From assembly GCA_965238305.1 (NCBI GenBank), contig CBDEHK010000001.1:1298391-1362390 (forward strand): DNA of 64,000 bases, written 5' to 3'. Shown here piece after piece: positions 7,460-52,484 of the stretch. The position numbers were made by a program, and so were the translations under genes. The first letter of the stretch is position 1, and the number at the start of each line of letters is the position of its first letter. The DNA comes from Alphaproteobacteria bacterium. GTDB lineage: Bacteria; Pseudomonadota; Alphaproteobacteria; GCA-2731375. The notes under the pieces were generated by a model. The model made no database searches. It was not told the origin of the DNA and saw only the letters and a list, made by a program, of their open reading frames with translations.

Positions 7460-7864
7460 CTACTCTTTATCGGTGGGTTCAAACGCAAGCGAGGCGGAAT
7501 TCATACAATATCGCAGGCCGCTCGGTTGCGGGCCGTCTTCGAAGACATGACCCAAATGGGCATCGCATTTGCTGCACAAAGCTTCGGTGCGGACCATGAA
7601 GTGGGAGCGATCGGTTTCCGTCTCCACATTGTCGCCATCGATTGGGCCCCAAAAGCTAGGCCAACCGGAACCAGACTCGAATTTTGTCTCGGACGAAAAG
7701 AGCGCCTGGCCGCAGCCGATGCAAGAAAAGACGCCGCTTCGTTTTTCGTCGTTCAGCGGTCCCGTAAAAGCCCGTTCGGTGCCTTTTTGCCGGGTAACGT
7801 AATAGGATTCCTCGCTCAATTGCTGGCGCCATTCGGCGTCCGTTTTTTGCACCTTTTCCGTCAT
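7460..7864 (-). CDS. msrB: peptide-methionine (R)-S-oxide reductase
   Basis: Product MTEKVQKTDAEWRQQLSEESYYVTRQKGTERAFTGPLNDEKRSGVFSCIGCGQALFSSETKFESGSGWPSFW...RTEALCSKCDAHLGHVFEDGP..RYC is a typical zinc-binding MsrB with 2x CxxC. Start set at ATG 7864 with RBS AGGAAG. The longer ORF-track start runs into the upstream gene. Confidence 0.9.
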   Translation of the reverse strand: MTEKVQKTDAEWRQQLSEESYYVTRQKGTERAFTGPLNDEKRSGVFSCIGCGQALFSSETKFESGSGWPSFWGPIDGDNVETETDRSHFMVRTEALCSKCDAHLGHVFEDGPQPSGLRYCMNSASLAFEPTDKE

Positions 7865-8580
7865 GATCTTCCTTTCAAGGCCGTTTGGATATTGGCCATT
7901 TGGATATCGATGTCGATATTCATGATCGACGTTATCTCCAGGTCGCGATCTTCGAAGACATGAGTTTCCAGCTTCTTCTCGCGCCAAGCCGCGATCTTAA
8001 TGTCTCTCTCCCGGATCAGCAATTCGATTTGCGGATAAAAAAACGCGACCATGGCCGTAAGCCAGCGATTGGTCGGCCAGGACGGCCAGGCATGGTCGAT
8101 TTGGAAGTGATCCAACAAGGCGATGGTATTGTCGCCAGTGAACCAATTCTCGTCCGTGACCCAGCGATTGGTGGTGAAAAGCTGTTCGGGGAAACCCTTT
8201 TTGTCCATAGAGATCGCAATTAGGTGGCAGACGATGTCATCGCCGCTTGGCCACTCGGTATCACTGTCGTTTTCGACCGGACCGGTAATATCGAGTAACC
8301 CTTCTTCGCGGATGAAGGTGTGGAAATGGCCATGTTCGCCGCTTTCCGGTCGATGCGCATGATAATAATATTGCCCGTGGGTCTCGCTATCATAGACATC
8401 GCCGTCGGGGTAATGATCCCATTCGTAAAACGTCTCGACCCGATTAATCAGTTCGTCGACCACGTTACCACTGATTTTGTGCAGGACGCGGTTGCATTCA
8501 AACACTTCTTCGCCACCCGCCTGCATTTTCCGCAAGCGCCCGGTGGAGAGGTCGGCAAAATTTATCTCACGTGTGGACAT
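7861..8580 (-). CDS. conserved hypothetical protein, His-rich, translationally coupled to msrB
   Basis: 239-aa ORF. Its stop overlaps the msrB start (ATGA). Contains the His-rich stretch YYYHAHRPESGEHGHFHTF. Family not recognised. Confidence 0.5.
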   Translation of the reverse strand: MSTREINFADLSTGRLRKMQAGGEEVFECNRVLHKISGNVVDELINRVETFYEWDHYPDGDVYDSETHGQYYYHAHRPESGEHGHFHTFIREEGLLDITGPVENDSDTEWPSGDDIVCHLIAISMDKKGFPEQLFTTNRWVTDENWFTGDNTIALLDHFQIDHAWPSWPTNRWLTAMVAFFYPQIELLIRERDIKIAAWREKKLETHVFEDRDLEITSIMNIDIDIQMANIQTALKGRS

Positions 8581-8614
8581 CGTTCATATTCTCAAATTGA
8601 GGTTTCTTGATAAC

Positions 8615-9487
8615 TTATTCCCGGACCAAGCGAAAGCCGATCAGGATATGTTTCAAATGATCTGGTCGGGAATGATGGGCGGCAGGCCGGCAGACGCCGC
8701 AACCTTTGTCGTCCCACGATCCACCCTTGACGATATGGCGGCCTTTGCCCTTTGCCGTTGCCGTCCATTCAAAAACTTGTCCAGCCGGATCGACAAGACC
8801 GTGTTGGCTGTTGCCTTTGGAGTATTGGCCGACCGGTACTGTATCGAAAGGCCCCATATCGTGGCTGTTGAGCCGGCTTGGATCATATTCATTGCCCCAG
8901 GGGAAGATTTTCCCTTCGTCACCGCGCGCGGCGCGTTCCCAGTCATCCTCGCTTGGTAGGCGCCAGTGATGGCCGGTTCGCCTGGACAACCACGCCGCGT
9001 AGGCCTGAACGTCGTCGAAGGACACCAATACAACCGGATGATCTTCCCGCCCTGCAGGCATCTGGCCATCCAACCAGGCATGCCGGCGGGTCCGCGTAAA
9101 TGGGTGGATCAGGCCATAACTTCGCCAAGTTGCCGAATCGACATTCGGTGTCGGATGGCCGGTTTGGTTGATGAATTCAGCATATTGCCGATTGGTGATG
9201 AGGGTTTGGGTAATCGCATAGGCTTTACCTTGGCGTTCAGATAGGGGCGGTTCGTCTTCGTACCATTTCTGTTGCCGGGTCACGCTATGGCCGTAGGCGG
9301 CTTCATCCAGCATATAGGCCAGTTCTTTTTCGGCGCGGTTTGAACCGATGAAATAGGATCCAGCTGGAATGTGAATAACTTCAGGTGCAGCGAGATCGCT
9401 TGCGAAGGTCGGTTGGCCCACAAATATCGCCGCCAGCACCGGCAAAATACCAATTGTTCCGATTTTACATCTGATTTTCTGCATCAC
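8615..9487 (-). CDS. formylglycine-generating enzyme (FGE/SUMF1) family protein, secreted
   Basis: Signal peptide (MMQKIRCKIGTIGILPVLAAIFVGQPTFA). FGE-sulfatase domain hallmarks are RVIRGGSW-like GGSWDD, HPVVLVSFDDVQAYAAWL, WRLPSEDDWERAARG and FPWGNEY. Confidence 0.8.
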   Translation of the reverse strand: MMQKIRCKIGTIGILPVLAAIFVGQPTFASDLAAPEVIHIPAGSYFIGSNRAEKELAYMLDEAAYGHSVTRQQKWYEDEPPLSERQGKAYAITQTLITNRQYAEFINQTGHPTPNVDSATWRSYGLIHPFTRTRRHAWLDGQMPAGREDHPVVLVSFDDVQAYAAWLSRRTGHHWRLPSEDDWERAARGDEGKIFPWGNEYDPSRLNSHDMGPFDTVPVGQYSKGNSQHGLVDPAGQVFEWTATAKGKGRHIVKGGSWDDKGCGVCRPAAHHSRPDHLKHILIGFRLVRE

Positions 9488-9629
9488 CCTCAGGTAAGTC
9501 GAAAATCCCCAAATAGAAAGGCCAATTGCGTCGAATCACATAATGGTGAGCCATTGTTACTAGTCTCCGTGATCAGAGGCGTCCACATTGGGTCCGGGAA
9601 CATCAACAATCAAATTGAGGAGGCACCTC

Positions 9630-10928
9630 ATGTACGCTCAAAAGAGCAAACTATTATCATCGACAGTCATTCCGTTGGTCGCCGTGGCGGCGTTGTCATC
9701 GGCTGGCGTCATTACCATGGCAAATATCAGTTTCGCGGCCAGCAGCGCGATACCCAACAACCCAACCGCGGTATCACGCCCGGCAACGCCAGACGGATCG
9801 TACCAGGTCGCAGCCTGTACCGCCAAGAAAGCGTGTAATCCGTGCGCGACCAAAAAGAAAGGCTGTAATCCTTGCAACCCCTGTGGGGCAAAAAAAGCCT
9901 GCAACCCATGCAATCCTTGCGCGACCAAGAAAGCCTGCAATCCTTGTAACCCTTGCGGTGCGAAAAAAGCTTGTGGCGCCTGCAATCCATGCAATCCGTG
10001 CGGTGGTGCATCTGCTGCGGGGTTATCACAAAAATGCATGGTGCCGCGGTTGATGAAGGCATCGCTTTGCAATCCTTGCAATCCTTGTGCGGCGAAAAAG
10101 GCCTGCAGTCCTTGCGGCGCAAAAAAAGCCTGCAATCCGTGCGCAACCAAGAAAGCTTGCAATCCTTGCGCAACGAAGAAAGCTTGCAACCCTTGTGCAA
10201 CCAAGAAAGCCTGCGGAGCTTGCAATCCCTGTGGCGCCAAGAAAGCCTGCGGAGCTTGTAATCCTTGCGCAACCAAAAAAGCCTGCAATCCATGCAATCC
10301 CTGTGGCGCCAAGAAAGCTTGTGGAACCTGCAATCCTTGCGCAACCAAAAAAGCCTGCAATCCATGCAATCCCTGTGGCGCCAAGAAAGCTTGCGGAGCC
10401 TGCAGTCCTTGTGGCGGCGCGGCGGCACCTGAATTAACCGCGGCAGAAGCCAATTCGGTTTATGACTGCTTGAAAGCCGATATGGTCAAAGGTTATGCAA
10501 AATCAGGACTGAAAGACGCCAAACATTATGCCGATTGGGACGGTTATTCGACGCAGCCTTATGTTTCCGACACCCATGGCGGCCGCTATGTGTTCAATCG
10601 TGGGAATGCGCAGGCCAAATCTTACGGCAAATATGAAGCGGCCGGCCGCATGCCGGTCGGTGCAAAATTGGCGAAAGACAGCTTTGTCGTCAAAACCAAC
10701 GGTAAAGTGGGCTCCGGGCCGCTCTTTATTATGGAAAAAATGGCCAAGGGCTTCAGTAAGGCAAGCGATAATTGGCGGTACACGATGGTGATGCCGAACG
10801 GTCAATTGTTCGGGATGACCAACGGCAAGAATTCTGCCGGAATGAAATTCTGTTATGAATGCCATGCCACTGTTGCGGAAGGCCAAGATAGTCTGATGTT
10901 CCTACCGGACGATTATCGGGTCAATTAG
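9630..10928 (+). CDS. secreted Cys-repeat protein fused to a cytochrome P460-like c-type haem domain
   Basis: ATG 9630 follows a GAGGAGG RBS. Signal peptide, then about 210 aa of tandem KKACNPC(NPC)(G/A)(A/T) repeats with over 60 Cys, mostly as CxPC pairs. The C-terminal roughly 160 aa carry a single CXXCH (FCYECHAT) near the C-terminus and resemble the cytochrome P460 / c'-beta family. Confidence 0.6.
   Translation: MYAQKSKLLSSTVIPLVAVAALSSAGVITMANISFAASSAIPNNPTAVSRPATPDGSYQVAACTAKKACNPCATKKKGCNPCNPCGAKKACNPCNPCATKKACNPCNPCGAKKACGACNPCNPCGGASAAGLSQKCMVPRLMKASLCNPCNPCAAKKACSPCGAKKACNPCATKKACNPCATKKACNPCATKKACGACNPCGAKKACGACNPCATKKACNPCNPCGAKKACGTCNPCATKKACNPCNPCGAKKACGACSPCGGAAAPELTAAEANSVYDCLKADMVKGYAKSGLKDAKHYADWDGYSTQPYVSDTHGGRYVFNRGNAQAKSYGKYEAAGRMPVGAKLAKDSFVVKTNGKVGSGPLFIMEKMAKGFSKASDNWRYTMVMPNGQLFGMTNGKNSAGMKFCYECHATVAEGQDSLMFLPDDYRVN
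9820..10430. repeat. in-frame coding tandem repeats with 27-nt (AAAGCCTGCAATCCTTGCGCAACCAAG-like) and 36-nt units
   Basis: Near-identical units recur roughly 25 times in the sequence. They cause long spurious stop-free antisense ORFs (9638..10453, 9727..10428, 10087..10437, 9953..10261). Confidence 0.85.
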
Positions 10929-10954
10929 CTCGGCAATCGTTCGCCCCCGAACTT

Positions 10955-10991
10955 GGCGGCAGTCCGATGACTGCCGCCATTTTCTTTTGTT
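10955..10991 (+). terminator. rho-independent terminator after the Cys-repeat/P460 gene
   Basis: GGCGGCAGT-CCGATG-ACTGCCGCC, a perfect 9-bp stem, followed by ATTTTCTTTTGTT. Confidence 0.7.
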
Positions 10992-11042: not shown

Positions 11043-11654
11043 ATGGCGCGGGTCGAGTTTTTCTTTGATTGTTCCAGTCCATGGACCTATCTGGCGTTCC
11101 ACAATTTCGCCGTGATGGCCGATGAATTGGGCCAGGCAGTGGAATGGAAACCGATCCTCGTCGGCGGGATATTCAATACCATCAATCCTTCCGTCTATGT
11201 TTCACGTGAAACACCGGTGCCGGCGAAGGCGCGATATCAGGCTAAGGACATGCAAGACTGGGCCCGCCAAGCTGGAATAAAGATCACCTGGCCGACCACG
11301 GTCTTTCCGGTCAACAGTGTGAAGGCGATGCGGGCTTGTATTGTCGCCGCGCAAAGCGACCGCTTGATGCCTTATGCCCGGGCCGTATTCGAAACCTATT
11401 GGGGGGACGATCGGGACATTAGTCAGGATGACGTGTTGGCCGATATTGCGACAAAATGCGGTTTCGATGCGCTGGAGATGGCTGAGAAAATCCAAACTGA
11501 CGAGATCAAACTGACGTTGCGAGAAAATACCGAGGCGTTGATGCGGCGCGGCGGCTTCGGTTCGCCGACGATTTTCCTTGATCGGGACGATATGTATTTT
11601 GGCAACGACCGCTTGCCCTTGGTGCGGGCGGCTCTGGCACGGGCGGCGGCTTGA
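11043..11654 (+). CDS. 2-hydroxychromene-2-carboxylate isomerase family / DsbA-like thioredoxin-fold protein
   Basis: N-terminal VEFFFDCSSPWTYLAF and overall length (203 aa) match the HCCA-isomerase (kappa-GST/DsbA-like) family. Confidence 0.7.
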   Translation: MARVEFFFDCSSPWTYLAFHNFAVMADELGQAVEWKPILVGGIFNTINPSVYVSRETPVPAKARYQAKDMQDWARQAGIKITWPTTVFPVNSVKAMRACIVAAQSDRLMPYARAVFETYWGDDRDISQDDVLADIATKCGFDALEMAEKIQTDEIKLTLRENTEALMRRGGFGSPTIFLDRDDMYFGNDRLPLVRAALARAAA

Positions 11655-11724
11655 CAGTACCAAACGCAACTGGCTGAATATGCTACCTGCCGATCTCGAT
11701 ATCCCGCGAAAGGAGGCGACTGAG

Positions 11725-12609
11725 ATGGATTATGTCAGTTATATCGACAAGACCCGCGATTATTATCTCTCGCAAGGTTACGACAAACCCTATCAATGGG
11801 CGCAGCATGATCAGGTGCCATTTCAAGCGCTGGAAAAACCGCTCGCTGGGTGCAAACTGGCGCTCCTGACGACCAGCGAACTCGCGATCAAATATGACGA
11901 GGCGACGGAAGAAAATCCTATCACCGAAGAAGGTTTCCGTAGCGTCTATGCCATTCCCGGCGACACTCGAAGCGAACTTTTTTATAGCCGCACCAACAGT
12001 TTTGATCGTTACGCCACCCATCTGGATGACGTGAACAGCTATTTCCCGGTCGATCGCTTGCGCGAAGCGCTGGCGGCCGGCCGCATCGCTGACATCCCAG
12101 AACGCCTTTATGGTGCCTATAATAATTACAGTGTCAAAAAAGTTCTCATCGACGAAGCGCCAAAAGCCCTGGCGATGTGCCGGGAAGACAACGTTGATGC
12201 AGCAATATTGGTCCCGGTCTGACCAGTTTGCCATCAGACCGTGAGTCTGATTGCCCGCTACCTGGAAGAACATGGCATCCCAACCGTGGTGATCGCGACG
12301 GCCCGGGATATTGTTGAAAGCTGCAATGTCCCGCGATTTTTGTTTGTCGATTTTCCCCTTGGTAATCCGTGTGGGGAACCCTTCAATGTGGCGCAGCAGC
12401 GGGAAATCTTCGAAAGTGCGTTAGGTGTGCTGGAAAACGCGACAGAACCCGGTATCACCATCGAAGCCGGCTATCGCTGGAGCCAGGGCGAAGCCTGGAA
12501 AGATAGCATCTTTACCGAAGCGCAACCGTTCCTATCAGGTGAGGCCAAGCAGGCTTGGCTGGATCGCAAAGACAAATACCGCGAGTTGAAACAGAAAGGC
12601 GAGCTTTGA
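11725..12609 (+). CDS. glycine/sarcosine/betaine/proline reductase protein B (GrdB/PrdB)-family selenoprotein candidate with an in-frame UGA (Sec) at 12220..12222
   Basis: Track ORFs 11578..12222 and 12241..12609 are in the same frame and separated only by TGA. Read-through gives ...AAILVPV-U-PVCHQTVSLIARYLEEHGIPTVVIATARDIV..., a UxxC motif. The UGA sits in the 5' arm of a 7-bp hairpin GGTCTGA-CCAGTTTGCCA-TCAGACC (12216..12240). N-terminal MDYVSYIDKTRDYYLSQGYDKPYQWAQHDQVPF resembles the GRDB family. Start set at ATG 11725 after an AGGAGG RBS. Confidence 0.55.
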
Positions 12610-12848
12610 TGGCGGCGGCGGTGATCGTCTATTCGACGCCATTTTGCATCCCGTGCGAACAGCTGAAGCAGTATCTCACCGATCACAATGTCGTCTTCGA
12701 AAGCCGCGACCTGATGATGGACGAAGGCGCGGCGGAACGCTTGGAAGCCTTCGGCATCCGCTCCACCCCGGCCCTGGAAGTGGCCGGTCAAATCTACGCC
12801 GGCGCCACCCTAACCCCGGAAAAAGTGCAGGAATTGCTGGAGCTGTAG
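12608..12848 (+). CDS. glutaredoxin-like small redox protein
   Basis: 80 aa, MAAAVIVYSTPFCIPCEQLKQYL..., with a CxxC (CIPC) active site in a glutaredoxin/NrdH-like context. Its start overlaps the upstream stop (TGATG). Confidence 0.7.
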
Positions 12849-30376: not shown

Positions 30377-31288
30377 TTATTGACCCTTCATCGTCGCACA
30401 GATTTCATCCATAACCGGTTTCAAACTTTCCCGCCAGTGCGGCGGTAGAATTTTGAAAGTGCTGGCTAGCGCGCTGCAGTCGAGACGAGAATTTTTCGGC
30501 CGCGCCGCCAGCGTTGGATATTCGGCGGTGGTTATCCGCTCCACTTTCGGCGACGGTAAACCTTGTCGGGCGCATTCTTCAAAAATTTCAATGGCAAAAT
30601 CGTACCAACTCGCTTCACCGCTATTGCTCAGGTGATAGGTGCCCCAGGCAATATCCCTTTCGGCGGCAGTCTGGGCCGCCAAGTCGATGATCGCTGTTGC
30701 AATGAAGGCGGCGGCAGTCGGCGTTCCAACCTGATCACCAACAACGGCCAGACATTCACGTTCACCGGCCAAACGCAGCATGGTCTTGACGAAATTTTCG
30801 CCGTGGGCACCATAGACCCAAGCCGTACGTAAGATCAGATGCCTGGCAAGATTATTGCGCACGGCTCGCTCTCCGGCTTCTTTCGATTTTCCGTAGATGC
30901 CCAAAGGAGCAACCGGATCGCCTTCGGTATACGGCCGATCCAATCCGCCATCAAAAACATAGTCCGTAGAAATATGAATTAATGCGGCATCTATTCTGGC
31001 CGCGGCACGGGCTAGATTATCCACACCATGGCAATTGATGGCTTGTGCCTCTTGAGGTTCGTTTTCTGCCCGATCAACAGCCGTATAAGCAGCTGCATTG
31101 ACAAGAATATCATAATCCCCGGTACCGGCAGCAATTTCGACTGCCCTGGCCTCCGTGATATCTAGTTCTACACGCGTCTTAAAGTCGACGGTGAAGCCGG
31201 CGGGCCAGTTGGCGCGGGCCAACTCAAACCCGACCTGTCCGTTGGCGCCGGTGACCAGCACTTTTGTCGCGCCGCCATCGACCATCAA
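30377..31288 (-). CDS. rfbD: dTDP-4-dehydrorhamnose reductase
   Basis: [15 protein letters not shown] with an RmlD-type SDR lacking the canonical length, about 300 aa. Its start overlaps the rfbB end. Confidence 0.85.
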
Positions 31289-32337
31289 GCTTTGCCCAAT
31301 CGTTCGCCGGCATAATTGTTATCAAGGATCGCTTGCCACCAATCCTGGTTGGCCAGATACCACTCAACCGTTGCCCGCAGACCGCTTTCGAAGGTTTCTT
31401 CCGGGAACCAGCCAAGGTCCGTTTTGATTTTGTTTGCGTCAACGGCATAACGCAAGTCATGGCCTGGACGATCGGCAACGTAAGTGATGAGGTCGCGTCT
31501 GTTGCTGGTTTCTTTACCCGGGGCCAGTTCGTCCAATAGATCGCAAATGGCATGAACGACGTCCAAATTGGTTCGTTCGCACCAACCGCCGATATTGTAA
31601 CATTCCCCGATCATGCCGTTTTCCAAGACCGAACAAAGCGCCCGAGCATGATCTTCCACATGCAGCCAATCGCGAATGTTTTCTCCTTTGCCGTAAACCG
31701 GCAGGGCATCGCCATGCAAACCTTTGATTATCATCAATGGGATCAGCTTTTCAGGAAACTGAAAGGGTCCGTAATTGTTGGAACAATTTGTCAATATTGT
31801 CGGCAAACCAAATGTTTCCTGCCAGGCGCGGAGCAAGTGGTCCGACGAAGCTTTACTGGCGGAATAAGGTGAATTGGGTTGATAGGGGCTATCCTCGACG
31901 AACATCCCGGTGTCCCCCAAGCTGCCGTAAACTTCGTCGGTTGAAATATGATGAAAGCGGAAATAGTCCTGGCGCGAACTCGGTAACGACTGCCAATAGC
32001 CAAGCGCTTGTTGCAACAAGGTGAAGGTGCCGACGACATTGGTTTGAATAAACTCTCCCGGGCCATCAATCGAACGATCGACATGGCTTTCCGCCGCCAA
32101 ATTCATCACCGCGTGCGGCTGCTAATCTGCCAAAATGTTGGCCAGCTGGTCGCCGTCGCAGATGTCGGCTTTGACAAAGCGATAGCGCGAATTCTGCTCA
32201 ACCTGCCGCAAGCTGTTCAAATTTGCCGCATAGGTAAGCTTGTCCAAGTTCAGAACTTCATGCTCGGAATTGGCAATCAGATGGCGGATAACAGCAGAGC
32301 CAATGAATCCCGCGCCGCCTGTAACAATAATTTTCAT
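31285..32337 (-). pseudogene. rfbB: dTDP-glucose 4,6-dehydratase interrupted by an in-frame amber codon (TAG at 32122..32124, minus strand)
   Basis: Continuous RmlB homology across ORFs 32122..32373 and 31285..32109: [20 protein letters not shown]...[35 protein letters not shown] versus E. coli ...ICD...[23 protein letters not shown]. The TAG replaces a CAG/CAC-type codon. It is either a nonsense mutation or a sequencing error. Confidence 0.6.
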
Positions 32338-32439
32338 CGCTGAACTCGCTAAGCTTGCAATTGCCCGCCGCATTCATTGCGCGGACGGACAGCGTTATAG
32401 GAGACTTTCTATTACTGTTCAATGACTGCGATCGGACAC

Positions 32440-51089: not shown

Positions 51090-51524
51090 TTAGCCGGTAC
51101 AGGACGGCGCATCGGAGGCCCGTCCGGGGGCCTTGTCCAGCAGACTTTGTATTTTATTTTGGTTGGTTTCGGCGACCATGCGTGCGGCGACTTCGCCACC
51201 CGTCACCATAATCAATGTCGACTGACGTCTGACCGAAAACTCTATGCTGATCGGCGAACTGCTATGTTGATCCCAATCGACATAGAGGAAAGCGATGTTT
51301 TTGTCATAGTCGGAATTCGCAGCGCGTAATGCCTCGATCACACGGACCTGGCGTCGGCAAGTACTTCACCAGGAAGCGCCGAATTCGAGGAAAACAGCAC
51401 ATCCCTTCGCTTTCGCAGCCTCCATGGCCTGTGGTGAATACGGGATACTGCCCTTGCTGGCCTGCGCGCTAAAGGGCGCGGCAAGGGCCAGCGCAAAAAT
51501 CGACAGCAAAATAAATTTCGGCAA
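51090..51524 (-). CDS. secreted thioredoxin-fold selenoprotein candidate with an in-frame UGA (Sec) at 51368..51366 in a W-U-S-T-C active-site motif
   Basis: TTG start at 51524 after an AAGGAG RBS with 7-nt spacing. Product MPKFILLSIFALALAAPFSAQA|SKGSIPYSPQAMEAAKAKGCAVFLEFGASW-U-STCRRQVRVIEALRAANSDYDKNIAFLYVDWDQ...TLIMVTGGEVAARMVAETNQNKIQSLLD. The UGA lies exactly where the first Cys of the thioredoxin WCxxC motif is expected. The downstream region aligns with thioredoxin PTLLLFKNGEVAA. UGA is at the base of hairpin CCTGG-TGAAGTACTTGCCGACG-CCAGG. Track ORF 51090..51341 is the post-UGA part. Confidence 0.6.
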
Positions 51525-51544: not shown

Positions 51545-52270
51545 TTACACCGAGACGGAGAAATCCTGTAACCAGATGGGTAGGATATCCAATAATTGGC
51601 CTTCCAGCCAATAGTTGAAGCCCAATAATATGGCCGTACCGACACACAAAAACGTGATCCCGAGAATGAGTTTGGCCCGATTCGCCAGTTGCTGGAGGGC
51701 AATTTGCCGACGAACAATGACTTCACGCGCACCGAACGCCAGGGCGATCATGACCGTCGAAACGCCTAGGGCGAAGAAACTCATGATCGCGCCGGCCCAG
51801 GCGATGTCTTGCCCTTGCGAGGCAAGCGATATCGCGCCGCCCAAGGTCGGTCCGATGCAGGGAGACCAAACCGCGCCCAACAGCACCCCGCCCAAAAACT
51901 GGCCGCGCAATCCGGTCATGCTATCCCCGGCGTCGAGTTGGCGCATGAGGATGTCCGCTTTGCCGGCCAAGTTGGCTGTTGCCGCGGCAAACTTCTCATT
52001 CATTTGCGGGACTAATAGGACAATGCCAAATCCGATCATCAGCCAGGCGCCAATCGTTGTCATGACTCCTTGATCAAGGCCGATGGAAGCGCCAAGAGTG
52101 ATCACAAATAACCCGACAACAACAAATGAAAAACTAAGGCCAGCGGCAAGTGCAATTGGCCCACGCCGATCGCTCTGCAACGAGGCTGCGAGCACAATTG
52201 GCAGAACCGGCAAAACACATGGGTTCACCAAGGTCAAAATTCCCGCCGCATAGGCCAACAACAATTCCAC
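51545..52270 (-). CDS. ccdA: cytochrome c biogenesis protein CcdA (DsbD-family transmembrane thiol-disulfide transporter)
   Basis: Conserved TM cysteines in LVNPCVLPVLP and WSPCIGP. The probable start is GTG at 52270 (MELLLAYAAG...). Ends 20 nt upstream of the thioredoxin-like gene. Confidence 0.8.
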   Translation of the reverse strand: MELLLAYAAGILTLVNPCVLPVLPIVLAASLQSDRRGPIALAAGLSFSFVVVGLFVITLGASIGLDQGVMTTIGAWLMIGFGIVLLVPQMNEKFAAATANLAGKADILMRQLDAGDSMTGLRGQFLGGVLLGAVWSPCIGPTLGGAISLASQGQDIAWAGAIMSFFALGVSTVMIALAFGAREVIVRRQIALQQLANRAKLILGITFLCVGTAILLGFNYWLEGQLLDILPIWLQDFSVSV

Positions 52271-52484
52271 TAGTAATAACTCCTGTAAGAACCGGTCATT
52301 GCCTCCGACACGATCATCTTCCGGCAGCAAAACAAAACCATACCATACCATAGGTAGCGAAACGCGCTTGCAACGTCACTTCAATTCCCCGCTACTATCG
52401 ATCGCATTAAGCAATCGAACCGCTATTTGTAGGTTTCTAAACAGCCTGCTAATGTTGTGATGAACTGCACAGGGAATAGAGTTA

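What the first reader, a model, noticed from the sequence alone, without database searches (positions are those of the whole stretch)
11725..12609. GrdB/PrdB-family reductase gene with an in-frame UGA in a UxxC motif embedded in a hairpin, making it a candidate selenoprotein
The two track ORFs 11578..12222 and 12241..12609 share a frame and are separated only by TGA at 12220..12222. Read-through gives VPV-U-PVCHQT, with Sec two residues before Cys as in redox-active UxxC centres. The UGA forms the 5' arm of a perfect 7-bp stem GGTCTGA/TCAGACC (12216..12240), reminiscent of bacterial SECIS elements that begin at the UGA. A plain stop here would leave two truncated half-proteins. A second UGA-Sec candidate lies elsewhere in the window (51368..51366), which makes a Sec-decoding organism more likely.
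Basis: partly seen in the sequence, partly recalled or inferred. Interest (0 to 1): 0.75.

Follow-up and report, generated by a model that had tools for sequence, protein, structure and literature searches.

The report
PrdB-like selenoprotein gene with SECIS
The "stop" codon in the middle of this reductase gene almost certainly encodes selenocysteine, so this is one 294-residue selenoprotein of a family already known to be common in marine bacteria, and public records wrongly cut it in half.

Summary
A single 294-codon frame (11725-12609) is interrupted only by TGA at 12220-12222, giving VPV-U-PVCHQT. The selenoprotein reading is strongly supported. In 80 related genome loci, 77 carry TGA at this exact column and 3 carry TGC or TGT. 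More distant full-length homologues have Cys there (VCPVCHQT).

It is the next hairpin downstream, at 12233-12251: stem AUCAGAC/GUCUGAU, loop CGUGA, with 17 nt between the UGA and the loop. It is paired in 99.4% of cells, shows U-A to C-G and G-C to A-U compensatory changes, freezes the synonymous sites of five codons, and meets every criterion of the published bacterial SECIS model.

The protein is a distant PrdB/GrdB relative that scores below all curated cut-offs. No PrdA, GrdA or GrdE partner lies nearby. A glutaredoxin-like gene follows it directly in 73 of 80 loci. This matches the "proline reductase PrdB, UxxC" selenoprotein family reported as abundant in ocean metagenomes since 2005. 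It is a new member of a known kind. Its substrate is unknown, and the genome's Sec machinery could not be checked.

The parts
11710..11716 (+). Shine-Dalgarno-like AAGGAGG, 8 nt upstream of the ATG
   Evidence: Read directly from the sequence.
11725..12609 (+). Complete coding sequence of the PrdB-like selenoprotein (294 residues including Sec166; terminal stop TGA at 12607-12609)
   Evidence: Translation. tblastn matches cover residues 1-294 in 80 loci. Full-length Cys homologues are 291-305 aa. GC3 is similar in the two halves, 0.57 and 0.59.
12220..12222 (+). Sec-encoding UGA (residue 166), first position of the UxxC centre
   Evidence: TGA in 77 of 80 loci and TGC/TGT in 3. Cys in all full-length database homologues.
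12229..12231 (+). Cys169 codon (TGC), the inferred resolving cysteine of U-P-V-C
   Evidence: Nearly invariant in the family. Invariant in all 77 distinct Sec-form sequences.
12233..12251 (+). SECIS upper stem-loop: AUCAGAC-CGUGA-GUCUGAU. A possible 2-bp lower stem joins 12230-12231 with 12253-12254.
   Evidence: -10.6 kcal/mol from the UGA to +37 nt, z -3.0. 99.4% of cells paired, two pairs with compensatory changes, 0 of 500 shuffles as high. RNAalifold predicts the same stem independently. Synonymous-codon entropy is about 0 at codons +5 to +9. It meets the bSECIS model criteria quoted in PMC13188914.
12216..12240 (+). It is mutually exclusive with the SECIS and not conserved; it is most likely a by-product.
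   Evidence: -11.4 kcal/mol in this sequence. Across relatives it is 77.9% paired with no compensatory changes and 500 of 500 shuffles as high.
12609..12848 (+). Glutaredoxin-like gene (79 aa, active site C-I-P-C). Its ATG overlaps the selenoprotein's TGA (ATGA). It is the inferred dedicated reductant.
   Evidence: Pfam Glutaredoxin E 8.8e-12. NCBIfam YruB/NrdH-like, below cut-offs. Found directly downstream in 73 of 80 loci, including Cys forms.
11043..11654 (+). DsbA-like/HCCA-isomerase-type gene (203 aa, FFFDCSSPW). It is probably the first gene of the operon in this genome only.
   Evidence: Pfam DSBA E 1.4e-38. Found in only 3 of 80 loci, distantly related and not adjacent. A terminator-like site at 10954-10979 lies upstream of it.
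51090..51524 (-). Second candidate selenoprotein: a secreted thioredoxin-fold protein reading ASW-U-STC, with TGA at 51368..51366. A candidate SECIS GGUC-CGUGU-GAUC lies at about 51348..51336.
   Evidence: ORFs and sequence. Pfam Thioredoxin. 12 metagenome relatives all have WCSTC. Hairpin of -7.5 kcal/mol, 21 nt after the UGA. The loop motif CCGTGWG is shared with the first SECIS and occurs only 4 times in the window.

Best explanation
Window 11725-12609 is one gene for a 294-residue selenoprotein of the PrdB-like branch of the GrdB/PrdB reductase superfamily.

Recoding (partly shown, partly inferred): when the ribosome reaches UGA 12220-12222, the hairpin at 12233-12251 recruits SelB-GTP-Sec-tRNASec, and selenocysteine is inserted instead of terminating. 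The hairpin has a 7-bp stem and a CGUGA loop, and 17 nt separate the UGA from the loop.

Chemistry (inferred): Sec166 lies at the N-terminal end of a helix that follows a beta-strand. Together with Cys169 it forms a U-x-x-C redox centre. By analogy with PrdB and GrdB, the selenolate attacks the substrate, Cys169 resolves the adduct to a selenenyl-sulfide, and the translationally coupled glutaredoxin-like protein (C-I-P-C, 12609-12848) reduces that bond back.

No pyruvoyl partner (PrdA or GrdE) accompanies the gene. The substrate is therefore probably not D-proline and remains unknown.

What is shown: the single conserved frame, the Sec/Cys pair, the conserved covarying SECIS, and the conserved glutaredoxin-like neighbour. 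What is inferred: SelB recognition, the catalytic cycle, and the glutaredoxin-like protein acting as reductant.
For: (1) The nearest relatives in the protein database (64-100% identity) are all called as 165-aa proteins ending ...LVPV. More distant full-length ones (291-305 aa) read VCPVCHQT.
(2) Of 80 genome loci, 77 have TGA and 3 have TGC/TGT at the column. tblastn matches run through residues 1-294.
(3) The hairpin at 12233-12251 is 99.4% paired. The U-A pair changes to C-G in 22 distinct sequences and a G-C pair changes to A-U in one. 0 of 500 shuffles reach this level. RNAalifold finds the same stem unaided.
(4) Codons +5 to +9 (CAG ACC GUG AGU CUG) have synonymous entropy of 0-0.24 bits, against 0.7-2.4 bits in the flanks. 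The three Cys forms use ACC/ACG AUC UCC/AGC CUG there and lack the hairpin.
(5) All four constraints of the bacterial SECIS model are met. The loop is 5 nt, the stem 7 bp, G is at loop position 2 followed by U, the spacing is 17 nt, and the energy is -10.6 kcal/mol.
(6) TGA is an ordinary stop in 14 of 50 window genes, so the code is not reassigned.
(7) Homology to PrdB/GrdB: TIGR04483 E 3e-26 over residues 33-251, plus GrdF, GrdB and GrdH hits.
(8) The AlphaFold model of a 57%-identical Cys form has pLDDT 88.9. It places residue 166 between strand 159-163 and helix 167-182.
(9) The glutaredoxin-like gene lies directly downstream in 73 of 80 loci. No other neighbour is conserved.
(10) A second UGA/Cys pair in the window is followed by a hairpin with a C-CGUGN-G apical loop. 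Only 4 CCGTGWG sites exist in the window, and 2 of them are at these two places.
(11) The family matches the 'Proline reductase PrdB, UxxC' selenoproteins of ocean metagenomes: 42 genes in the Sargasso Sea, and 235 Sec against 110 Cys forms in GOS.
Against: The genome's Sec machinery (selA, selB, selC, selD) could not be examined. None of these genes lies in the window, and the source genome could not be retrieved.

There is no experimental evidence for Se incorporation.

In this particular sequence a competing hairpin that sequesters the SECIS 5' arm is slightly more stable (-11.4 against -10.6 kcal/mol).

Rfam has no matching family.

The protein scores below the curated cut-offs of every PrdB/GrdB model. 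The catalytic analogy therefore rests on distant homology, and no solved structure exists for the fold.

The role of the glutaredoxin-like protein is inferred from gene adjacency only.
Confidence: 0.9

Rival explanations
1. The gene is the selenoprotein subunit of a genuine D-proline reductase (PrdB) or glycine/betaine/sarcosine reductase (GrdB/F/H). It would work with a pyruvoyl subunit encoded elsewhere in the genome.
For: The best NCBIfam hit is TIGR04483 PrdB (E 3e-26). It has the same UxxC motif that is listed for PrdB and GrdB. Some metagenome sources label relatives 'D-proline reductase (dithiol) PrdB'.
Against: It scores 92 bits against the equivalog cut-off of 300, and 30 bits against 65 for the family model TIGR01918. 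No PrdA, PrdC, GrdA, GrdE, GrdC or GrdD lies in the window. No neighbour other than the glutaredoxin-like gene is conserved in the 81 loci clustered (the 80 related loci plus the window). PrdB needs PrdA for activity (PMC11229817). The motif is UxxC-H-Q-T, not the UxxCxxC described for GrdB. The hosts are mostly Alpha-, Beta- and Gammaproteobacteria MAGs, not Stickland fermenters.
Confidence: 0.07
2. The TGA is a true stop. The locus is either two separate genes (a 165-aa product and a 122-aa product starting at GTG 12241) or a pseudogene inactivated by a nonsense mutation.
For: Public gene calls give a 165-aa product that is 100% identical to the N-terminal part (P0019). Many database representatives are N- or C-terminal halves. 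TGA does terminate other genes in the window.
Against: The same TGA is present in 77 of 80 loci at 51-74% protein identity, which is incompatible with independent nonsense mutations. Cys forms are single continuous proteins. The 'start' GTG at 12241 is the invariant Val codon in the SECIS loop and has no ribosome-binding site upstream. The downstream half is conserved in frame and has the same GC3. The window does contain a real interrupted gene for contrast, rmlB with an in-frame TAG. That gene was not compared with relatives, so the contrast is not established.
Confidence: 0.02
3. The UGA-containing hairpin at 12216-12240 that the first reader described is the functional SECIS, or is a regulatory switch that competes with the SECIS.
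For: It is a perfect 7-8 bp stem and is slightly more stable than the downstream hairpin in this sequence (-11.4 kcal/mol, z -3.5). About half of the relatives have Val = GUC before the UGA, which allows the same pairing.
Against: Across 68 distinct sequences only 77.9% of cells pair, no pair shows a compensatory change, and the score equals the shuffled expectation. Where the SECIS pair changes U to C, the pairing with the A of the UGA is simply lost, in 23 sequences. The 5' arm would lie inside the ribosome when the UGA is in the A site (inference from the general mechanism). RNAalifold does not predict it.
Confidence: 0.05

Closest known systems
'Proline reductase PrdB' UxxC selenoprotein family of marine metagenomes (Zhang, Gladyshev and co-workers: Sargasso Sea 2005, PMC1088965; GOS 2008, PMC2398784)
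   Same: Related to Pfam PF07355. Sec sits in a UxxC motif. There are more Sec forms than Cys forms, and the family occurs in environmental Proteobacteria-type genomes. A stem-loop with G in a small apical loop follows the UGA.
   Different: Nothing essential differs. Those papers give no sequences that I could align here, so identity with that family is inferred from motif, domain and habitat. The papers treat it as proline reductase. The absence of PrdA and the conserved glutaredoxin-like partner shown here are not mentioned in the passages I read.
D-proline reductase subunit PrdB of Clostridioides difficile / C. sticklandii (TIGR04483)
   Same: Homologous domain: the profile is covered at positions 20-233 of 238. 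Sec lies in a UxxC motif at an equivalent position (U151 in a 25.7-kDa PrdB, against U166 here after a roughly 13-residue N-terminal offset). The proposed selenolate attack followed by Se-S formation and dithiol regeneration is the same.
   Different: It scores 92 bits against the cut-off of 300. It has a C-terminal helical extension of about 45 residues. No PrdA pyruvoyl subunit, PrdC, PrdH or PrdF lies nearby. The hosts are Proteobacteria rather than Stickland-fermenting Firmicutes. A dedicated glutaredoxin-like partner takes the place of PrdC.
Glycine/sarcosine/betaine reductase selenoprotein B (GrdB/GrdF/GrdH; PF07355, TIGR01918)
   Same: The match is to the C-terminal half of these roughly 435-residue proteins (positions about 204-427). 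Sec is followed by Cys two residues later. A thioredoxin-type reductant is encoded in the operon (the last point is from general knowledge of grd operons).
   Different: It lacks the N-terminal half. It has no UxxCxxC motif. It has no GrdA, GrdE, GrdC or GrdD. All scores are below the cut-offs (18.8 against 22 for Pfam; 30 against 65 for TIGR01918).
Consensus bacterial SECIS (bSECISearch model; E. coli fdhF type)
   Same: It lies immediately downstream of the UGA inside the coding region. It has a small apical loop with G-U at positions 2-3, a 7-bp upper stem, 17 nt from UGA to loop, and an energy below -7.5 kcal/mol.
   Different: No Rfam family matches. The sequence CAGACCGUGAGUCUG is specific to this protein family and fixes the residues Q-T-V-S-L. 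Cys forms have Ile where Sec forms have Val.

Membership tests
Bacterial selenoprotein gene (Sec-UGA plus SECIS) | In-frame UGA aligned with Cys in homologues (Sec/Cys pair), with the reading frame conserved on both sides | tested here: met
   77 TGA and 3 TGC/TGT among 80 loci. Full-length homologues have Cys. Matches cover residues 1-294.
Bacterial selenoprotein gene (Sec-UGA plus SECIS) | Stem-loop downstream of the UGA that meets the bSECIS model: loop 3-9 nt, stem 4-16 bp, G in the first two loop positions, 16-37 nt spacing, MFE <= -7.5 kcal/mol | tested here: met
   Loop CGUGA, stem 7 bp, spacing 17 nt, -10.6 kcal/mol.
Bacterial selenoprotein gene (Sec-UGA plus SECIS) | RNA-level conservation of the SECIS beyond what the protein sequence requires | tested here: met
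   Two pairs with compensatory changes and 0 of 500 shuffles as high. Synonymous entropy about 0 at five codons. Cys forms lack the hairpin.
Bacterial selenoprotein gene (Sec-UGA plus SECIS) | Host genome encodes selA, selB, selD and tRNA-Sec | not testable with these tools
   None lies in the 64-kb window. The 4.9-Mb source contig could not be retrieved. There is indirect support from a second UGA/Cys pair followed by a hairpin with a C-CGUGN-G apical loop.
Bacterial selenoprotein gene (Sec-UGA plus SECIS) | Selenium demonstrated in the protein | not testable with these tools
   Needs 75Se labelling or mass spectrometry.
GrdB/PrdB superfamily (PF07355, TIGR01918) | Profile match at or above the curated cut-off | tested here: not met
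   PF07355 scores 18.8 against 22. TIGR01918 scores 30.4 against 65.45. The E-values (3e-26 to PrdB) still show homology, so this is a distant subfamily without a curated model of its own.
GrdB/PrdB superfamily (PF07355, TIGR01918) | Sec (or Cys) in a UxxC motif within the homologous region | tested here: met
   U166-P-V-C169 lies inside the matched stretch 33-251. The motif is listed as UxxC for both families. A residue-by-residue alignment with a bona fide PrdB was not made.
D-proline reductase PrdB (TIGR04483 equivalog) | Equivalog score >= 300 bits | tested here: not met
   92.3 bits for the window protein, and 98-118 bits for Cys homologues.
D-proline reductase PrdB (TIGR04483 equivalog) | Partnered with the pyruvoyl proprotein PrdA (and PrdC/PrdH) in the same cluster | tested here: not met
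   No such gene lies in the window. No conserved neighbour other than the glutaredoxin-like gene was found in the 81 loci clustered, that is the 80 related loci plus the window. Elsewhere in the genomes was not testable.
Glycine reductase GrdB | Protein of about 430 aa with a UxxCxxC motif, in a grdA/grdE/grdC/grdD context | tested here: not met
   294 aa. The motif is U-P-V-C-H-Q-T. No grd genes are present.

The most novel reading that the evidence does not exclude
The PrdB-like selenoprotein and its glutaredoxin-like neighbour form a self-contained two-gene Sec-dependent reductase. It would work without any pyruvoyl subunit, on a substrate other than D-proline or glycine, in aerobic or facultative Proteobacteria. 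Occasional fusions of the domain to AMP-binding (adenylating) enzymes hint at an activated carboxylate or thioester substrate. On this reading, the abundant ocean 'PrdB' selenoproteins have been functionally mislabelled for twenty years.
Probability: 0.45. Interest if true: 0.55.

Novelty: new member of a known kind. Interest (0 to 1): 0.3.

Why it matters
The practical outcome is an annotation repair. The public record calls a 165-residue fragment, and many database entries for this family are N- or C-terminal halves. The analysis also gives a precise, covariation-supported SECIS for the family (CAGACCGUGAGUCUG, 17 nt after the UGA). That element can be used to find and correctly translate its members.

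The biological point is that one of the commonest selenoprotein families of environmental Proteobacteria carries the name of a clostridial Stickland enzyme. Yet it lacks that enzyme's obligatory pyruvoyl partner and travels instead with a dedicated glutaredoxin-like gene. This makes its real substrate a well-posed open question. It is not a new principle.

Tried and rejected
- The source genome could not be recovered to look for sel genes. Exact-product look-ups found nothing, and cluster look-ups gave no names or accessions.
- ARAGORN found no tRNA-Sec in the window or in the 60 of the 80 related loci that were scanned.
- Rfam gave no SECIS match at either the gathering or the permissive threshold.
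- A PDB sequence search with a family profile found nothing meaningful. A Foldseek search of the good AlphaFold model against the PDB gave no hit with E <= 0.001. The fold therefore has no solved representative. The afdb50 library was unavailable.
- Folding a 71-nt stretch around the UGA gave an unremarkable z-score of -0.63. Only the comparative analysis separated the two competing hairpins.
- The DsbA-like upstream gene was rejected as part of the conserved system, because it occurs in only 3 of 80 loci and not adjacent.
- The metagenome scan for the second candidate used a pattern containing Cys codons. It could only find Cys forms and says nothing about how common Sec forms of that protein are.
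- A literature search for 'PrdB-like' found nothing.
Full report
**1. The observation**

An ATG at 11725, preceded by AAGGAGG at 11710-11716, opens a frame that runs to TGA at 12607-12609. It is interrupted only by TGA at 12220-12222. The two mechanical ORFs 11578..12222 and 12241..12609 share that frame. Read-through gives 294 residues containing ...AAILVPV-U-PVCHQTVSLIARY... The stem GGTCTGA (12216-12222) / TCAGACC (12234-12240) is present. Folded alone it forms 8 bp at -11.4 kcal/mol with z -3.5. The second in-frame TGA, at 51368..51366 on the minus strand, is also there.

**2. Is the TGA a stop?**

No. A protein search split the homologues into two classes. Every close relative (64-100% identity) is called as a 165-residue protein ending ...LVPV. 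This includes P0019, which is 100% identical and comes from a 4.9-Mb contig. More distant relatives (40-57% identity) are full-length proteins of 291-305 residues. In the alignment, the full-length proteins have Cys at the TGA column (VCPVCHQT).

I then fetched DNA for 80 related genome loci. These are mostly Alphaproteobacteria MAGs (Hyphomicrobiaceae, Rhodospirillaceae, Reyranella), with some Beta- and Gammaproteobacteria. Of these, 77 have TGA at exactly this codon and 3 have TGC or TGT (L062, L067, L077). In all of them the tblastn match continues in frame to residue 294.

TGA is an ordinary terminator in 14 of 50 other genes of the window, so the genetic code is standard. GC3 is the same on both sides of the TGA. 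A nonsense mutation, or two separate genes, cannot explain a stop codon kept at one column across lineages that share only 51-74% protein identity.

**3. Which hairpin is the SECIS?**

Codon-aligned DNA of the 78 Sec-form sequences (the window plus 77 loci) shows that CA[U/C] CAG ACC GUG AGU CUG [A/G]U is essentially invariant, including its synonymous positions. The synonymous-codon entropy is 0-0.24 bits for codons +5 to +9 after Sec. It is 0.7-2.4 bits for the neighbouring codons, even those with invariant amino acids such as Pro+1, Val+2 and Arg+12.

This block folds as AUCAGAC-CGUGA-GUCUGAU at window 12233-12251. For that stem:
- 99.4% of cells are paired.
- The U-A pair is replaced by C-G in 22 distinct sequences. 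This comes from a His CAU to CAC change paired with an Ile AUC to Val GUC change.
- A G-C pair becomes A-U in one sequence and G-U in two.
- No shuffle out of 500 reaches the observed values.

RNAalifold, given only the alignment, predicts exactly this stem. The three Cys forms encode ACC/ACG AUC UCC/AGC CUG at this place and cannot form the hairpin. Sec forms have Val (GUG) where Cys forms have Ile, so the RNA requirement dictates a residue of the protein.

The element meets the published bacterial SECIS model (quoted from PMC13188914):

| Criterion | Model | Here |
|---|---|---|
| Apical loop length | 3-9 nt | 5 nt |
| Upper stem | 4-16 bp | 7 bp |
| G in first two loop positions | required | G at position 2, followed by U |
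| Spacing, UGA to loop | 16-37 nt | 17 nt |
| Energy | <= -7.5 kcal/mol | -10.6 kcal/mol (z -3.0) |

Across the relatives only 77.9% of its cells pair and there is no compensatory change. Its score equals the shuffled expectation. When the SECIS pair changes U to C, the pairing with the A of the UGA is simply lost. It exists in this genome because Val165 happens to use GUC, so that GUCUGA repeats the sequence of the SECIS 3' arm. I regard it as a by-product, although a modulating role is not excluded. Rfam has no family for this element.

**4. What the protein is**

The best profile match is D-proline reductase PrdB (TIGR04483, E 3e-26, residues 33-251 on profile positions 20-233 of 238). Next come the C-terminal halves of GrdF, GrdB and GrdH. 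All are far below their curated cut-offs: 92 against 300 bits, and 30 against 65 bits for the family model TIGR01918. Pfam GRDB scores 18.8 against 22. Cys homologues behave the same way. The protein is therefore homologous to PrdB and GrdB, but belongs to a separate subfamily with no curated model.

An exhaustive search found 1,561 cluster representatives at E <= 1e-3. Many of them end at residue 165 or start at 168/174, which means gene callers have split them at the TGA.

No solved structure exists, either by sequence or by fold. The AlphaFold model of the 57%-identical Cys form P0001 is confident (pLDDT 88.9). It places residue 166 in the turn between strand 159-163 and helix 167-182. This is the strand-turn-helix position that redox-active CxxC motifs typically occupy (general knowledge).

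**5. Context**

The only conserved neighbour is a 79-residue glutaredoxin-like gene with active site C-I-P-C (Pfam Glutaredoxin, YruB/NrdH-like). Its ATG overlaps the selenoprotein's terminal TGA (ATGA at 12607-12611). It lies directly downstream in 73 of 80 loci, including the Cys forms. Clustering all ORFs within about 5-6 kb in the 81 loci (the 80 related loci plus the window) revealed no other shared gene family.

No PrdA, PrdC, PrdH, GrdA, GrdE, GrdC or GrdD was found there or anywhere in the window. The upstream DsbA-like/HCCA-isomerase-type gene (11043-11654) probably shares the operon in this genome, since a terminator-like site lies before it at 10954-10979. It is not conserved elsewhere.

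D-proline reductase needs the pyruvoyl subunit PrdA to bind its substrate (PMC11229817). A stand-alone PrdB-like protein with its own small dithiol partner is therefore unlikely to be a proline reductase.

**6. Mechanism proposed**

Recoding is partly shown by sequence evidence: the UGA, the SECIS and the Sec/Cys pair. That SelB-GTP-Sec-tRNASec binds the 12233-12251 hairpin as the ribosome reaches the UGA is inferred.

The chemistry is inferred by analogy with PrdB and GrdB. The Sec166 selenolate attacks the substrate. Cys169 resolves the adduct into a selenenyl-sulfide. The glutaredoxin-like C-I-P-C protein reduces that bond, and is itself recharged by cellular thiol systems.

The substrate is unknown. 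One lead is that two distant representatives fuse an AMP-binding adenylation domain to the PrdB-like domain (P0126, P0129).

**7. Sec decoding in this genome**

This is the weakest link. The window has no tRNA-Sec and no sel genes, and I could not retrieve the rest of the genome.

There is indirect support from the second candidate, at 51524..51090 on the minus strand. It lies downstream of a DsbD/CcdA-type membrane protein. It is a signal-peptide-bearing thioredoxin-fold protein whose TGA aligns with the first Cys of WCSTC in all 12 metagenome relatives. Twenty-one nt after its UGA lies GGUC-CGUGU-GAUC. This gives the same C-CGUGN-G apical motif as in the PrdB-like gene.

CCGTGWG occurs only 4 times in the 64-kb window on both strands, against 13.9 expected, and two of the four are these sites. 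There are two caveats:
- Part of that sequence also encodes the conserved residues R-V-I.
- The scan pattern could only recover Cys forms.

Alphaproteobacteria are known to carry Sec systems (PMC8124441).

**8. Comparison with what is known, and novelty**

'Proline reductase PrdB' with a UxxC motif and pfam07355 was reported as the third most abundant selenoprotein family of the Sargasso Sea, with 42 genes (PMC1088965). It was also among the most abundant in the GOS data, with 235 Sec forms against 110 Cys forms (PMC2398784). By motif, domain, Sec/Cys ratio and habitat, the gene here belongs to that family.

It is therefore a new member of a known kind. The contributions here are the correct SECIS with covariation, the demonstration that PrdA is not in the neighbourhood, and the conserved glutaredoxin-like partner.

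**9. Verdict**

The selenoprotein interpretation is supported with high confidence (about 0.9). The SECIS assignment is corrected. Membership of the PrdB or GrdB enzyme families proper is not supported. Interest is modest: the result is unsurprising to a selenoprotein specialist, useful for annotation, and points to an unresolved function for a very common family.

Noticed in passing
window 51090-51524 (-), TGA at 51368..51366; upstream gene 51545-52351 (-): A second candidate selenoprotein. It is a signal-peptide thioredoxin-fold protein reading ASW-U-STC, downstream of a DsbD/CcdA-type membrane protein. Twelve metagenome relatives have WCSTC at that place. A hairpin GGUC-CGUGU-GAUC lies 21 nt after the UGA and shares the C-CGUGN-G apical motif with the PrdB-like SECIS.
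   Followed up: partly
window 31285-32373 (-), in-frame TAG at 32124..32122: An rmlB-type dTDP-glucose 4,6-dehydratase is split by an in-frame TAG (…[26 protein letters not shown]…). From memory, E. coli RfbB has Tyr at that position. It looks like a TAY-to-TAG nonsense mutation or a sequencing error. I did not compare it with relatives.
   Followed up: partly
L070, about +2150 to +2638 relative to its Sec codon (-); other loci: Some related loci carry a second, divergent PrdB-like paralogue. It also ends prematurely (162 aa...LLIAIPA), which suggests a further Sec-containing copy.
   Followed up: no
proteins P0126 (805 aa) and P0129 (514 aa): These are fusions of an AMP-binding (adenylate-forming) enzyme domain with a C-terminal PrdB-like domain (NCPVCHQS). 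They may hint at the substrate class of the family.
   Followed up: partly
window 7861-9487 (-): An FGE-sulfatase-domain protein, with weak similarity to the C-terminal domains of EgtB, SenA (selenoneine synthase) and PvdO, sits next to a DUF6969 protein, about 2 kb upstream of the selenoprotein operon. All hits are far below their cut-offs.
   Followed up: no
window 9588-10928 (+): A 446-residue ORF has no Pfam or NCBIfam match. It overlaps long antisense ORFs and is followed by a strong terminator-like hairpin at 10954-10979. A related stretch was seen in only one of the 80 loci (L039).
   Followed up: no
window 12367-12373 (+): A third copy of the CCGTGWG motif lies inside the selenoprotein gene itself, encoding the conserved N-P-C-G-E segment. 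It is probably coincidental.
   Followed up: no
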